From: Stegostoma tigrinum
Lineage: Eukaryota
Reading direction: 5' to 3'
NCBI RefSeq assembly: GCF_030684315.1
Contig: NC_081369.1
Span: 13,616,035-13,680,034 of the forward strand
Length of the DNA: 64,000 bases
Of the stretch, positions 28,335 through 64,000 are shown one piece after another; positions within the stretch are counted from its first letter, which is position 1, and every line of letters begins with the position of its first letter. Under the pieces are notes generated by a model, which saw nothing but the letters and a program-made list of their open reading frames with translations, ran no database searches and had not been told where the DNA came from. The position numbers and the translations under genes are program-made.

Positions 28335-31300
28335 TTCCTTCCCCACAAGGCTGAGAATGTAGGCTTGTTCTTTCTCCCGTAACTTCTCTTGGGATGGGCT
28401 TGCACAGGTACAGTTTCTCCGACTCTGCCTCGGACACAGGTGGCGTGTACCAGACTGTAGCCTATCTCTTGCACCCAGAGCATCTCGGGGGTGGGGGGGC
28501 GGGGGTTGGGTTTTCCTCCTCTTCTTCTGGCAGTGATGGTATTGAGGTCGTGTCCATCTCGGACTCTGAGATTTCTTCAATATTAGGGGGAGAAGGAGAA
28601 GCCTTGGTTTCTGACAGGCTTTCTGGCTGTTCCCAGGGGTCAGGTATGTTTTGCTTCTGCCCCATTTGTGATGTAGCAGTTTTCATGTGATCCACATATT
28701 TGTTCAGGACCACCCCACCTACCCGAGCTTTGTATGTCACTGGACCTGACCTTGTGTCGACCTCACCTTGTCCCCCAGGCAGGACCATTTCCCTGGCTTT
28801 GACACTTAAACTTCATTCCCTGAAGTAACATGTCCAGCGTTGGGGTTCCTGATACCATTTCACACTCAACCCCAGGCCTAGGAAAATCTGGTTTAACCTG
28901 ATGCTGAATCTCCTCCCCAGCAGCAACTCTGTTGGAGCTATCCCTGTAGTTGCATGAAGGATGGCCCTCTATTCAAATAGGAACCAGGACAGTTTGGTAT
29001 CTGAATGAAAGTATAGGCTGTTTCTTTCAGCCTGAACTCAACATTTGGATTGTTCTTTCACCAGGCCATTGGCTGATGGATGATATGGAGCTGTCCTTGC
29101 ATGTTGAATACCATTTGGCTTCAGGAAAAACTTGAAATCCCTGCCGGTAAATGACATCCCATTGTTTGTGACTGACACTTCCAGGAGTTCATGTTTTGTG
29201 AATGATGCTCGCTGCTTTCCAATCATCATCGCTGAGTTGCCAAATGAACTCTGTGCATGTCAAACCACTTGGAATGGGCATCCACAATGACCACGACTAT
29301 TGACCTCATGAAAGGACTGGCATGGCCGATAAGTAACCAGGTCCAGCATTTACCCTGCCATTCCCACAAAAGTGGGGGTGCAGCTGGCAGTACTTTTTTG
29401 TACTTGTTGGCACTTTGGGCACTGCGTCCCCCCCCCCCCAAAGCAGCTATGTCGGCATCCAATCCTGGCCAGCAGGCATGACTTCTCGCTAACGTCATCA
29501 TTTTAGAAATCCTTGGTTGACCCTGGTGGACTTCCACCAGTATCTGGCAACAACCCTTGCTCAGGACAATCAACCCATAGTAATGTGCCGTCCTCTATGG
29601 TGGGTCCAGAAAGGTATCGAATCTGATTGTCATGGCTCTTTAGTTTCCATCACAACCACCAGCTGTTTCAGTTTTGCCAGGACGGGATTGTTTTGTGTCC
29701 ACAGTCGGATAATGCCAGCGGTGACCATGAGAGCGTCCAGAAAGTTCAAAACCAGAACACGGTCTCCCAGGACAGGCAGCACCTGTGAAGTATCTGCCAG
29801 TGGGAGGCGGCTCTGCATTTGCCACTTGGCTTCCTGGACGATGTTCCAACTTGCAATTACGTGCACAGAGAATAAGGGCCCACCACTGAATTCAACCTGA
29901 AGCTATGGGTGGCACTGCCTTCTCTTCTTTAAGTAAGCTGAGGGGTTTGAGGTCCGTTACTGTGACAACTTCCTCTCTGTAAAGGTACTAGTAGAATTTC
30001 CTCACACCAAAGATGGCTGCCAGACCTTCCTCTTCTATCTAGGCTTGTTTGAGTTTGGCATCAGCATACCTTATCGGGCATTCCTCTCTGGTGGGTCACC
30101 AGTGAGCCAACTCTACACCAATACCATACAGAGAGGCATTGCATGTCAGCCACACTTCTTGCTTCGGATAGTAGTGGGCCAATGCCTTAGATGATGATAG
30201 CTGGTTTTTCACTTCCCTAAAGGCTACATCTTGGCTACAGGTCCATTTCCAAGGCTGACCCTTTTTCAATAGCTGGTGTAAGGGTGCCAAGGTGGAGGCC
30301 ATGTTGTGTATGAACTTTCCGTAATAATTCAACGCACCAGGCACAGAACTAGGCTCTGATACAGACGCGGGAGCTGGGGCTCCTTTGATCATCCTCACTT
30401 TCTCTTTCAATGAGTGTAACCTGGTTTTGTCAACTCTGTCACCCAAGCAGGTCACTTGGAGTGAGAGATAGATAGGAATTGCAGATGCTGGAGGACCCGA
30501 GATAACAAGGCATAGAGCTGGATGAACACAGCAGGCCAAGGAACATCTGGCCTGGAATGCACATTTTTCACTTCTAAAGTGTATGCCTGCCTGAGAGAAA
30601 TGTTAAAGGACTAGGTCTGAGCTTTCCTAGTGCTCTTTATTAGTCTTCCTAGTTTTTGACATGCCATCCGGATAAATGGTAACTAGGGTAGCCATTGTAA
30701 AATATTCTTCATCATCTGCTGGGAAAGGGTGCAACCTGAAGATATCCCAAATGGCAGTCTTGTGTATTGATACAAACCCTTATGGGTGTTAATTGCGGCA
30801 TATTTCTGGGACTCCTTATCTCGTCACAATTGAAGATATGCATGGCTCAGGGCTTCATGAAGGACAGCTGTTCCTGCCCCCCCAAAACCCCCCTCGCCAG
30901 TTTTGCCCACGAGTCCTCTGTGTGAGGGTTCGGATATTTATCCAACTGTGAGAAGCAGTTCACTGTTTGCTTAAAAACGCCACAAAGGTGAACCAAGCTA
31001 TCAGGTTTCACAATTAGTATGACTGGAGCTGCCCATTCTGCAAACTGGGCTGGTCGGATGATTCCTTCGCTTTCCAACCTCCTGATTTCTGACTCTACTT
31101 TTGCTCGTAAGATAGATGGGCGTGCCTTGTAGAATTGCAGAATTGCTTCCTGGCCAACTTACAAGGTGGTCTAGGCTCCTTCGATAGTCCTTAGACCTTT
31201 GTGAAAAGCTATCGGATATTTAATTAGGACTTCACTCAGGCAGCCACTTTCTAATTGAAATATGTTGAGCCAGTCAAGATGAATCTTTCTCAACCAATTG

Positions 31301-57412: not shown

Positions 57413-57919
57413 TAGTAATCCAAAATTTGTGTTTTATACAGTCGTGCGCTTCCTCTGGCCCATTTCCTCAGAGAGATCCTCCACTGGCTTCTCAATTCTT
57501 TGCTCATGATCCTGCAACAGGAATGAAGTGATCCCTAGGTCACCAGCATCAATTGCCATTTTGAAAAATAAGGGGCAGCCAACACTTGTTCATTCATTAG
57601 GAATGTCTTCAGGATCTCAAAAGCTGCCTGGTGTTCTGCTGACATTTCACTCAACCTTCAGCAAAAAATCTCATGATTTCCCACTTAATTTTAGGAACAG
57701 GAACTTCTAGTTGAGCCTTCACTTTTACTGTCTTTGGCAATGCAATCCTACAATTTGTCTTCGGTAAGTTACTCTTCTTTTGTGAATTCACCTTTGGCTA
57801 AATTTGTTAGTAAACCGATCAGTAGTAATTGCTTAGACATATCTTCCAATCATTTCTCATTGTTTCCAAAGTGCTATACATTGCAACATTGTCTAGATAA
57901 ATTTAGCAGGACTTGACTA

Positions 57920-61149: not shown

Positions 61150-61638
61150 GGAGGGGTCTAATGGAGAGAGTCCGTGATAGCTGCTGAGAGCCTGGGGCTG
61201 GTTGGGTGTTGGGGAAAGTCCATCCCCAGGGTGCGGACGGGGTTCCCTGAGCACTAACAACCAGGGGAGGTGAGTGCTCAGGGATCTAGCACAGCCAGCG
61301 TCACGGAAAGTGGTGGTTTCACGGTGAGCAGGTTGAGATCTTAAACAAGAGGGAGGATGGGAGGGGGCAGGCTTCTTGACTAATGGGGGCGGGGTGATTG
61401 ATCCTCTGGTATAATTTCTCCGTTATCTTTCGGGGAGATCTGGCAGTTTGTCAGCTGTGTGTCTGTGTGTGTGTGTCTGTCTCTCGCTCTGTCTGTGTGT
61501 GTGTGTGTGTGTGCAGGGTGGGAAGCCGATTGTGGGAGCGGATCCGAAAACCGCAGTTTGAACCTGTGGAAAAGGGATACAGGGAGGGAAATCTCTGCTC
61601 TTATCCCTTTTCAGAAGCAGCCTGGCCCCGGTTTGAAC
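61150..61638 (+). promoter_or_regulatory. CpG-rich promoter region of the V-J gene
   Basis: CpG density rises sharply relative to the rest of the window. Contains GC box GGGGGCGGGG (~61385), kappaB-like GGGAAAGTCC (61212-61221) and an interrupted (TG)n tract (~61456-61512) just upstream of the ATG. Confidence 0.5.
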
Positions 61639-61699
61639 ATGAACAGCCGCTTGGCCGCTCGCTGCGGGCTCGCTGTCCTTTCGACCTTCCTTTGGGCAG
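61639..61699 (+). CDS. Leader (signal peptide) exon of an Ig-superfamily V-J receptor gene, MNSRLAARCGLAVLSTFLWA
   Basis: ATG at 61639; 20 codons plus 1 nt with basic N-region and hydrophobic core; donor CAG|GTAGG at 61700. The phase-1 end matches the V exon 273 nt downstream. Confidence 0.85.
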
Positions 61700-61972
61700 G
61701 TAGGACTCACCACAGTCTCAGGGACCCTCTGCCTTCTCTTCGCCTCCTTCATTTGAAAGAAATCCTCTTGTCCCCCTAACTCTCTCTTCCCCCAAGATTC
61801 TAAGGACATCCCGCGGTAATGGGGGAGGGAAAAGGCGCTATATAAATATTGTGCCCGCTCTTGAGGAGATCCCGAATTTGATTTCCCCCTGTCCGCCCCG
61901 TGCCTGCTGCTTCCTGCACCATTCCTGTTGGTTCCCGTCTGTGATAGTTTTTTTTCCCGCCTCTCTCCACAG

Positions 61973-62290
61973 TCTTTGCGAATTCCAGCTTCAAAGTAGC
62001 TCAGTATCCCGAAATCCTGAACCAGACCGTCGGCTCCAACGCGACTTTCTACTGCACCTTCCCGTTTGCTCGGGATGTGTCCAGGGTCCGGGTGAGCTGG
62101 TGGAGGGACGACGAGCAGGATTTCCTCCGGGAAAAGAAGGATTCCAGGTATCACTTTGAAATCCGGAATAAAGCCAGCGCCGCCTTCCACCTCCGGGGCG
62201 TGGATGTCTCCGACTCCGGGCTCTACTTCTGCCGCGTTAACAACGAGGGCAAGGTGGCGATCGGGAGCGGCACCCGGCTCCTGGTGACCG
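61973..62290 (+). CDS. Germline-joined V-J Ig domain exon, NKp30/NCR3-like non-rearranging receptor
   Basis: Strong acceptor (tttttttcccgcctctctccacAG), 318 nt open phase 1-1, donor G|GTAAGT. Translation VFANSSFKVAQYPEILNQTVGSNATFYCTFPFARDVSRVRVSWWRDDEQDFLREKKDSRYHFEIRNKASAAFHLRGVDVSDSGLYFCRVNNEGKVAIGSGTRLLVT has B-strand Cys, C-strand Trp, DxGxYxC and the J-type GxGTxLxV motif. The NKp30 resemblance is from memory of the family, not a search. Confidence 0.9.
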
Positions 62291-62789
62291 GTAAGTCAAT
62301 CCCATTTACACCCTTACCCCAACTCAGCACGGCCGGGGACGATTGCGCGAACGGGAGGCTTTTTTAATCTGAGTCAGACCCCAGGTCAGGGAGAGAGTAT
62401 CCCAGGCAGGAACCTAAATCATTGCTGGCAAACTTCCTGAACCCCAGCTCCAGAGGGACAGAAGCTAGGCTGCTGGAAAAGCTCAGCAGGTCTGGCAGCG
62501 TCTGTGAAGGAGAAAATAGAGTTAACGTTTCGGGTCCGCTTACCCTTCCTCAGAACTGATTCATTCATTCAGAGGTAGTAAGAACTGCCGATGCTGGAGT
62601 TAGAGATGAGACGGTCCAGTTCCGCAATGTGTTACCTGTGACCCATTCGTTCCTCTGTCTTCGAGACTGCCTTTATTTATCACCCGGGAATATTGGCCCG
62701 GGGACCGAGAGACGGCGATTACCACGTGTTTCAGTCATGAGTTATTTCTCACTCCACTGCAGAGTCAAACTGGAAAACTCTCCACTAAA

Positions 62790-63420
62790 GCAAAACAGAT
62801 TGTAAATGAGCAAATGAAATTTTGGCATTTATTGCTCAAGGAATAGAGTGTAAAAGTGAGGAAATGTTGCCGCACCTGTACAAGGCTATAGTGAGACCAC
62901 ACTCGGAGTGTTGCACAAAGTGTTGGTCTCTTTGAGGAGGGATGTAGTTGTGTCGGAGGCAGTTCAGAGGAGGTTCCCAGATTGCTTCCAGACATGAGGG
63001 GTTTGTCTTAGGGAGAGAGATTGAGCAGTTTCGGCCCATACTGTCTGGAGTTTAGCAGAATTAGAAAAGATCTAATCGAGGTGCAGAAGATGCTAAAGAC
63101 GATTGACAAAGTAGACATAGAGAGAATGTTTCCCCTTGTGGGTAAACTAGGAGAGGTTATAATTTTTGGACTGGGGTAGCAGATTTAAAACAGAACTGAG
63201 GAGCAATTACTTCTCTGAGGGTCGCGAATCTACGGGAATTCCCTACCCCAGAGTGCGACGGATGTCTGTGGCACCTAATAAATTTAAGTAGGAGACAGAA
63301 TTTTAATGATTTAATAGGTTAAAGGAAGGCAAATGAAGTTGAGGTGAAGATGAGACCAATGCTGATCATGTTGAATGCCGGAGTAGCCTCTGAATTGCTT
63401 ACTCCTGCATCTAGTTTTAT
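62790..63420 (+). mobile_element. CR1 3' fragment in the intron downstream of the V-J exon
   Basis: LYKAIVRPHSE motif and CR1 3' tail. Confidence 0.75.
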
Positions 63421-64000
63421 GACCCTCCGGACCCTGTGCCTCTGCAAAAGCCTGGGTTTTTTGGGACCACATGAGCAGGGATTGAATATCCCGGGGATGG
63501 AGAATCCCCCTGGATAACCGTCCGACGGCGCCTCTGTGCCCATTTAATCCTCATTCCAATCAGTTTACCCCTGGCTGACCATGAGTTTCTGAGCCTAGCG
63601 GACATGTAATTTTCCAGCCTTTCCCCGCAACCCTTCCCAACTTTCACTGAAAGGCAGACGAAACCGCGATTGAAATCCTGCTGAACATGAGCTGTAGCGG
63701 ATGCGCTCTTTCTCTTTAGTGTTACACGGGCGGTATGTAACACATTTACCCGGGGAGAGAGAATTAGACCTGCGAGTGATCAAACATAAACAAAAACTTT
63801 AGACTTAAAATTACTCAGTGGGGGTCTGTATTAAAATTTACAAATTCTAACATGCACATAAAATCAAACTCCATTAATTAGCGGATTCCTTTACTCGGTT
63901 ATTGCCTACAGTGAGATGGAATGGACAACAGTTGAGGGTTGTAATGAGTTAACGCAGTGACAATATTTCACAAACGCTTGGCGAGTTTATATCATTATCT

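What the first reader, a model, noticed from the sequence alone, without database searches (positions are those of the whole stretch)
61639..62290. Non-rearranging, germline-joined V-J Ig receptor gene (NKp30/NCR3-like)
Seen: a leader exon plus one exon encoding the whole V domain including the J-type IGSGTRLLVT strand, with no heptamer/nonamer RSS after YFC. Known: single-exon V-J domains occur in NKp30, Xenopus XMIV, NITR, CD8-like and MHC-paralogon VJ/VJ-C1 genes, and are discussed as relatives of the pre-RAG antigen-receptor ancestor. The ORF track misses the N-terminal part and the leader. Exact orthology cannot be determined from this window.
Basis: partly seen in the sequence, partly recalled or inferred. 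Interest (0 to 1): 0.75.

Follow-up and report, generated by a model that had tools for sequence, protein, structure and literature searches.

The report
Shark non-rearranging VJ-C1 receptor family member
This shark gene has an antibody-like V and J region already joined in one exon; it is predicted to encode a V-J plus C1 surface protein of a large shark and ray family that likely works as paired on/off immune receptors, and it is likely not NKp30 itself.

Summary
A leader exon (61639-61699) and one V-J exon (61973-62290) have canonical splice sites and no recombination signals; contigs of a related species are spliced at this intron. Leader and V are identical to zebra shark RefSeq model XP_048402947.2: leader-VJ-C1-uncharged TM-tail with two conserved tyrosines. 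C1, TM and tail exons are not in the window. The NKp30 label is only loosely right. The V is in NKp30's structural neighbourhood, but the model has a C1 domain and no charged TM residue, the V is shorter, it groups apart from frog and turtle NCR3, and the white-shark orthologue is off the MHC chromosome that carries five NCR3 genes. The gene is a conserved member of a large VJ-C1 family whose 13 named representatives are all sharks, rays or chimaera; some paralogues carry ITIMs, others a TM arginine, like paired receptors. Family genes share one chromosome per species, apparently outside the listed MHC paralogons. My searches found no description of the family, but five key papers were not available. 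Ligand and signalling are inferred.

The parts
57740..57763 (+). Coding part of an alternative upstream exon used by RefSeq model XP_048402947.2 (8 codons, then GT at 57764; splices to an acceptor before 61615)
   Evidence: exact match to the first 8 residues of P0005; whether this exon is really used was not tested
61531..61638 (+). Likely 5' untranslated part of the leader exon (unspliced form)
   Evidence: a relative's spliced contig runs continuously 61531-61696
61639..61699 (+). Leader (signal peptide) exon, 20 codons plus 1 base, phase-1 donor
   Evidence: identical to P0005 residues 17-36
61700..61972 (+). 273-nt GT-AG intron (split leader)
61973..62290 (+). Single exon for the leader end and the whole VJ-type domain; Cys-Cys spacing 59; no C'/C'' strands in the predicted model
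   Evidence: identical to P0005 residues 38-142
62260..62289 (+). J-like G strand IGSGTRLLVT (GxG present; Ile where rearranging J segments have Phe or Trp, recalled)
   Evidence: sequence
62291..64000 (+). Start of the V-C1 intron; C1, TM and tail exons are not in the window
   Evidence: tblastn of P0005 finds only leader and V; other hits E 0.5 or worse
61501..63000 (.). CpG-rich stretch over the 5' end of the gene (observed/expected 0.61-0.85 against 0.26 for the window)

Best explanation
The window holds the leader and single VJ exon of a non-rearranging gene predicted to encode a type I membrane receptor (VJ-C1-TM-tail) of a cartilaginous-fish multigene family, which likely binds one fixed cell-surface ligand with its V domain and likely signals through two conserved tail tyrosines. 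Shown: exon structure, no RSS, identity to the RefSeq model, orthologous models in 10 shark species, paralogues with ITIMs or a TM arginine. Inferred: the family works as paired inhibitory and activating receptors in the manner of SIRPs or NITRs. This member lacks the TM charge and its tyrosines sit where paralogues have ITIMs, so it most likely dampens or tunes activation: the first site (MxYTx-hydrophobic) would be a weak ITIM for SHP-type phosphatases, the second (mostly I/V-Y-A-T/S-P) would dock Crk/Abl-type SH2 proteins (consensus recalled). No free extracellular Cys and no canonical J Phe/Trp suggest a single-chain V rather than a Fab-like pair.
For: Architecture: Pfam V-set and C1-set in P0005 and in 4 of 4 orthologues scanned; model with two Ig domains and a TM helix at 256-288. 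Family: 61 of the 150 listed hits (358 found) score 85 bits or more on the family V profile, best outsider 66.8; 47 of 61 have a C1; 23 of the 40 with a TM have a canonical ITIM pattern (profile built from 24 family sequences, and isoforms and fragments are included). Arg in the TM with a short tail in P0032, P0058, P0074, P0176, P0178-P0180. The window V scores 113 bits on a family profile built without its orthologues, 52 on a frog and turtle NCR3 profile; a profile from such tetrapod sequences finds human NKp30 at 78-81 bits. Tree of 72 V domains: 39 family rows on one side of a branch, 92/99. Both tail tyrosines kept in 10 of 10 orthologues and aligned with paralogue ITIMs. TM 87% mean identity among orthologues against 70% for V and 65% for C1; FG-loop length fixed. 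Splicing in a relative.
Against: C1, TM and tail come from database gene models, not from the window. 0 of 10 orthologues has a canonical ITIM; zebra shark has lost the Pro of the second motif and S. torazame the hydrophobic residue of the first, so inhibition is unproven. No tissue or cell type is known, so an immune role is by analogy. The V has real NKp30 likeness: an 'NCR3-like' cluster is the second structural row in the Atlas (TM 0.87), and NKp30 has the highest identity (28-30%) among listed structural neighbours. The family branch is not starred, rests on 108 columns, and has no shark NCR3, SIRP, PRARP, UrIg, Ig or TCR rows. Only 13 of 61 representatives were looked up for taxon.
Confidence: 0.68

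Rival explanations
1. It is the cartilaginous-fish branch of a known tetrapod or bony-fish non-rearranging VJ-C1 family (SIRP, or PRARP/Xenopus VJC1), so an orthologue rather than a separate family.
For: RefSeq's automatic names for many members are SIRP-alpha-like; SIRP-alpha is the best non-immunoglobulin hit of the family profile apart from UrIg2 (111 bits); paired ITIM and charged-TM forms match SIRP logic (recalled); PRARP is recalled as VJ-C1 with ITIM/ITSM; reedfish chr12 lists 9 genes with the same automatic name.
Against: SIRP's score sums two C1 domains and a single V-C lambda chain scores 93.5; one C1 here, two in SIRP-alpha (recalled); the automatic names also include IgL, TCR-beta, tapasin-related and B7-H6, so they carry no orthology. 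The family-profile search returned no non-chondrichthyan V-C1 protein among 16 hits from 8000 scored candidates (low sensitivity). PRARP is cited as an MHC gene (PMC10751288) while this family seems off the MHC.
Confidence: 0.17
2. It is a divergent member of the shark NKp30/NCR3 family that kept or gained a C1 domain and left the MHC.
For: Atlas structural neighbour 'NCR3-like', TM 0.87; 33% identity to Xenopus NCR3 over 116 columns; profile-profile probability 98.6, 30% identity; some paralogues have a TM Arg, as NKp30 has a TM charge.
Against: C1 present, no charged TM residue, long Tyr tail; Cys spacing 54-60 against 65-70; 52 bits against member medians of 128-150 on the NCR3 profile; white-shark orthologue LOC121279610 absent from the chr19 MHC list that has five NCR3 genes; phmmer ranks TCR-alpha above NKp30 (32 against 26 bits).
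Confidence: 0.09
3. It is a germline-joined relic of a once-rearranging IgL or TCR cluster that was recruited as an innate receptor.
For: V-C1 layout, split leader and phase-1 exons are those of IgL/TCR; light chains top the PDB hits of the full protein; sharks have germline-joined IgL-lambda (PMC12227049).
Against: Only 17-23% identity to Fab chains in fold hits; no canonical F/W-G-x-G; compact V; no Cys after C1; long Tyr tail; orthologues of this family in chimaera, rays and sharks; no RSS; epaulette and white-shark IDs absent from the AgR-complex table.
Confidence: 0.04
4. It is a pseudogene or orphan V exon.
For: No downstream exon in the last 1.7 kb of the window.
Against: Intact frame and splice sites, full RefSeq model, intact orthologues in 10 species, spliced contigs in a relative, CpG-rich 5' end.
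Confidence: 0.02

Closest known systems
NKp30/NCR3 (and frog and turtle NCR3-like genes)
   Same: Single-exon VJ domain with GxG; nearest by identity among solved structures (28-30%).
   Different: NKp30 has one extracellular V, a charged TM pairing with CD3-zeta and lies in the MHC; this gene has V plus C1, an uncharged TM, a Tyr tail, a V shorter by 6-10 residues between the cysteines, and is off the white-shark MHC chromosome.
SIRP family (SIRP-alpha, beta, gamma)
   Same: Non-rearranging VJ plus C1, inhibitory ITIM and charged-TM forms (SIRP details recalled); source of the RefSeq name.
   Different: One C1 rather than two; no specific sequence affinity shown; synteny and CD47 binding untested.
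PRARP and Xenopus VJC1 genes
   Same: Recalled as VJ-C1-TM with ITIM/ITSM; listed among joined-VJ genes in PMC11599192.
   Different: Cited as MHC genes; recalled as few-gene and not reported in sharks; no sequence was available to compare.
UrIg and UrIg2 (elasmobranch non-rearranging Ig)
   Same: Single-exon VJ, split leader, C1 domains; UrIg2 is the top PDB hit of one paralogue's C1 (65.4 bits summed, best domain 27.1).
   Different: UrIg has three C1 and is secreted; UrIg2 has nine or more C1, is a disulfide-linked dimer and lies on white-shark chr27. UrIg2 is not in the top 60 for P0005.
IgNAR V (VNAR)
   Same: Compact V without C'/C'' in the predicted model; VNAR is among the top fold hits (Z 14.1, rmsd 2.2, 97 aligned; tied with many).
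   Different: VNAR rearranges and has a long variable CDR3 (recalled); here the FG loop has fixed length and identity is 24-26%.

Membership tests
Non-rearranging single-exon VJ genes (class) | V and J-like G strand in one exon, no RSS | tested here: met
Chondrichthyan VJ-C1 family (defined here) | Family V profile score above the gap; C1-set domain; Cys spacing 54-60 | tested here: met
   113 bits on a profile without orthologues; C1-set 40.1 bits; spacing 59
NKp30/NCR3 | Single extracellular V, no C1 | tested here: not met
   C1 in the identical RefSeq model and 4 of 4 orthologues scanned; the C1 exon itself is outside the window
NKp30/NCR3 | Charged TM residue for adaptor pairing | tested here: not met
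   no K, R, D or E inside the hydrophobic TM of P0005
NKp30/NCR3 | MHC linkage | tested here: not met
   white-shark orthologue absent from the 1,022-row chr19 list; catshark MHC list ends at 163.4 Mb while paralogues lie on a 198.8-Mb contig; not tested in zebra shark
NKp30/NCR3 | V groups with NCR3 | tested here: inconclusive
NKp30/NCR3 | Binds B7-H6 | not testable with these tools
   needs a binding assay
SIRP | V-C1-C1 ectodomain (recalled) | tested here: not met
   one C1
SIRP | Specific sequence affinity | tested here: inconclusive
   111 bits with two C1 against 93.5 for one lambda chain
SIRP | Conserved synteny; CD47 binding | not testable with these tools
   no genome held; no neighbour gene found in the window
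PRARP / VJC1 | VJ-C1-TM with Tyr motif (recalled) | tested here: met
   the motifs are non-canonical in this gene
PRARP / VJC1 | Orthology by sequence | not testable with these tools
   no named PRARP sequence retrieved; source papers not held
UrIg/UrIg2 | VJ plus three or more C1; MHC or AgR-complex location | tested here: not met
   one C1; IDs absent from both tables
Rearranging or germline-joined IgL/TCR | RSS, or canonical F/W-G-x-G J and interchain Cys | tested here: not met
Rearranging or germline-joined IgL/TCR | V nests inside an Ig/TCR clan | not tested
   no Ig or TCR rows were available for the tree

The most novel reading that the evidence does not exclude
Cartilaginous fish keep an undescribed paired-receptor complex built on an unsplit two-domain VJ-C1 cassette, the form that PMC12227049 predicts for the ancestor of UrIg and of antigen receptors. 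This family would then be a living sister lineage of the gene that the RAG transposon invaded, located outside the recognised MHC paralogons and using a VNAR-like compact V, with this gene as its slowly changing anchor member.
Probability: 0.15. Interest if true: 0.82.

Novelty: new variant of a known kind. Interest (0 to 1): 0.47.

Why it matters
Single-exon VJ-C1 genes are the sought-after models of the pre-RAG receptor, and shark NK-cell and myeloid receptors are poorly known. A family of dozens of divergent VJ-C1 proteins with inhibitory-type and activating-type forms, now scattered under names such as SIRP-like, tapasin-like and IgL-like, gives a testable candidate for the shark paired-receptor system and a further lineage for trees of antigen-receptor origin. 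Its apparent place outside the MHC paralogons would strain the view that such genes mark the proto-MHC. The single gene is already a RefSeq model, which limits the surprise.

Tried and rejected
No whole genome is held, so flanking genes could not be read. Pfam on 141 of 469 non-repeat ORFs (those of 70 aa or more) and on 10 long repeat-rich ORFs found no neighbour gene, only retrotransposon remnants near 29.0-30.6 kb; short exons would be missed. No second V or C1 exon in the window. Sequencing-run search: no RNA holder listed; runs X1-X3 are only guessed to be RNA. Fold searches do not single out one family: the top V hits are tied; SIRP and UrIg2 are not among the listed rows, which excludes nothing. 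Ten literature searches found no description of this family; the library lacks most subscription papers, and the PRARP paper (PMID 30770416), the 2019 primordial-immune-complex paper, the 2021 shark NCR3 paper, the 2023 UrIg paper and the 2022 Immunogenetics review were not held, so absence from print is not shown. The elephant-shark genome supplement held as text had no NCR3, NKp30 or SIRP term and may be incomplete. The CD28-family paper describes other, motif-defined genes. Earlier scan notes: nothing. The NCR3-seeded search returned only amphibian, turtle and unnamed proteins, no shark NCR3. No complex prediction was run: a V-C1 pair would likely pass by likeness to Fabs. A promoter motif scan found no octamer in the 1 kb upstream; uninformative.

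Full report
Observation. The leader exon (ATG 61639, donor 61700), the 273-nt intron and the 318-nt phase-1 exon 61973-62290 are as described. The exon carries the whole V domain through IGSGTRLLVT and passes the Pfam V-set cut-off. Only two RSS-like sites with three or fewer mismatches exist in 64 kb, both more than 34 kb away; the best site from the V exon to the window end has five mismatches. Contigs of a related species skip exactly this intron in 2 of 3 runs guessed to be RNA, in one at depth 82.5 against 6.4 for the intron contig; the identical run is unspliced. The gene is real and, in a relative, spliced.

Identity. Leader and V are identical to zebra shark XP_048402947.2 (P0005), so the window is most likely zebra shark. 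That model continues into a C1-set domain, an uncharged TM and a tail of about 85 residues with tyrosines. These exons are not in the window. The model also starts in an upstream exon at 57740-57763, while the relative's contig runs unspliced from 61531, so two 5' ends are likely. Orthologous models exist in 10 shark species from carpet sharks to the sevengill Heptranchias. Among them mean identity is 87% in the TM, 70% in V, 65% in C1 and 48% in the FG loop, whose length is fixed.

Family. An exhaustive search with the V exon gave 358 hits, 150 listed. Of these, 61 score 85 bits or more on a family V profile, the best outsider 66.8; 47 of 61 have a C1; 40 have a TM by my hydropathy rule, and 23 of those a canonical ITIM pattern, 7 a crude basic-residue pattern without ITIM (several doubtful), 10 neither. 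The profile was built from 24 family sequences and the list includes isoforms and fragments, so these are not gene counts. Clear TM-arginine, short-tail members are P0032, P0058, P0074, P0176 and P0178-P0180. All 13 representatives with a looked-up taxon are sharks, rays or elephant shark; 48 were not looked up. In 9 of 9 species with two or more looked-up genes, they share one contig length, so one chromosome per species; how tight the cluster is I could not see, and no second V or C1 lies in this window.

NKp30 test. For: an 'NCR3-like' cluster is the second structural row in the Atlas (TM 0.87); NKp30 has the highest identity among listed fold neighbours, 28-30%; 33% to Xenopus NCR3; profile match 98.6. 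Against: NKp30 has one V and a charged TM and is MHC-encoded (PMC12272517, passages). The window V scores 113 bits on a family profile without its orthologues and 52 on a frog and turtle NCR3 profile; a profile from such sequences does find human NKp30. In a 72-row, 108-column tree the 39 family rows form one side of a branch (92/99, not starred), apart from 10 frog and 9 turtle NCR3-like rows (P0135 and P0023 were dropped as short or without a domain hit). Cys spacing is 54-60 in 38 measured family rows, 67-70 in 10 frog rows, 65 in 7 turtle rows, and both models lack C' and C'' strands.

Location. The supplement of PMC10751288 lists five NCR3 genes on white-shark MHC chr19; the orthologue LOC121279610 is not in the file. 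The catshark MHC list ends at 163.4 Mb, whereas catshark paralogues lie on a 198.8-Mb contig. The paper's paralogon table gives white shark chr16, 30, 19, 8, 27, 40 and catshark chr4, 25, 13, 21, 17, 16, with white chr15 at 137 Mb, catshark chr16 at 145 Mb and chr21 at 71 Mb. If chromosomes are numbered by size and the family sits in the same place in both species, a 193.5-Mb white-shark and a 198.8-Mb catshark chromosome exclude each paralogon in at least one species. This is inference, not a synteny map.

Other known genes. UrIg and UrIg2 have three or more C1 domains (PMC12227049; abstract, parts 1-3 of 8, first part of the discussion), and our IDs are absent from its supplements. UrIg2 is still the top PDB hit for one paralogue's C1 (best domain 27.1 bits against 17.9 for the next shown), a weak lead that may reflect shared shark origin. 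SIRP-alpha scores 111 bits on the family profile but sums two C1 domains; one lambda chain scores 93.5. PRARP could not be compared. Fold hits are tied among VNAR, TCR-alpha, CD79b, IgL, PD-1 and NKp30.

Mechanism. Shown: a fixed, germline V with no junctional length variation; paralogues with ITIMs or a TM arginine. Inferred: a paired-receptor family. This member has no TM charge and no extracellular Cys beyond the two domain disulfides. Both tail tyrosines are kept in 10 of 10 orthologues and align with paralogue ITIMs, but none is a canonical ITIM: the first reads MxYTx plus a hydrophobic residue in 9 of 10, the second YxxP in 9 of 10, zebra shark being the exception. I commit to a damping or tuning receptor for a conserved surface ligand, recruiting SH2 proteins after phosphorylation, at about 0.68 for identity and mechanism together; the identity alone is near 0.9.

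Papers seen. PMC10751288: passages, sections 8, 12, 13, supplement searches and parts 1, 15, 59, 95, 96. PMC12227049: as above plus a supplement search. PMC11599192 and PMC12272517: passages. PMC12619710, PMC8236899, PMC4451681, PMC3964593: passages (and one supplement search for the last), nothing relevant. The PRARP, primordial-immune-complex, shark NCR3, first UrIg and 2022 review papers: not seen, recalled only. They could already describe this family.

Verdict. A real non-rearranging VJ-C1 receptor gene, not NKp30 by the features I could test, in a large chondrichthyan family with paired-receptor anatomy that ten searches did not find described. The class is known; the family, its compact V and its apparent location outside the MHC paralogons are the new part. 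New variant of a known kind; interest 0.47.

Noticed in passing
window 62239 onward (FG loop), runs X1-X3: The relative's contigs stop matching at the CDR3-like loop although the rest of the exon is about 94% identical, and the first bases of the loop differ among the three runs. This may be fast change or polymorphism at the binding loop.
   Followed up: partly
proteins P0102, P0086, P0092, P0117, P0027, P0034: Two- to four-V, TM, ITIM proteins (named ones are lizard, turtle and viper) are the best non-family V hits, and several share the 59-residue Cys spacing. Possible tetrapod relatives without C1; the tree does not join them to the family.
   Followed up: partly
reedfish chr12 table in the supplement of PMC10751288: Nine 'PTPNS1-like' genes, several interleaved with tapasin-related-like and C-type lectin NK receptor genes; same automatic names as the shark family. 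Untested candidate for a bony-fish counterpart.
   Followed up: no
proteins P0025, P0026, P0029: A neighbouring subfamily in ray, elephant shark and epaulette shark; the two with a predicted TM have neither tail tyrosines nor a TM charge.
   Followed up: no
proteins P0008, P0009: Epaulette shark has a near-identical second model whose tail stops before the tyrosines, a possible recent duplicate or decoy form.
   Followed up: no
window 29041-30602, minus strand: Fragments with RNase H and integrase Pfam hits, a decayed LTR retrotransposon.
   Followed up: no
window 61460-61515: A GT/CT microsatellite directly upstream of the apparent transcript start, with a TATAA at 61410.
   Followed up: no
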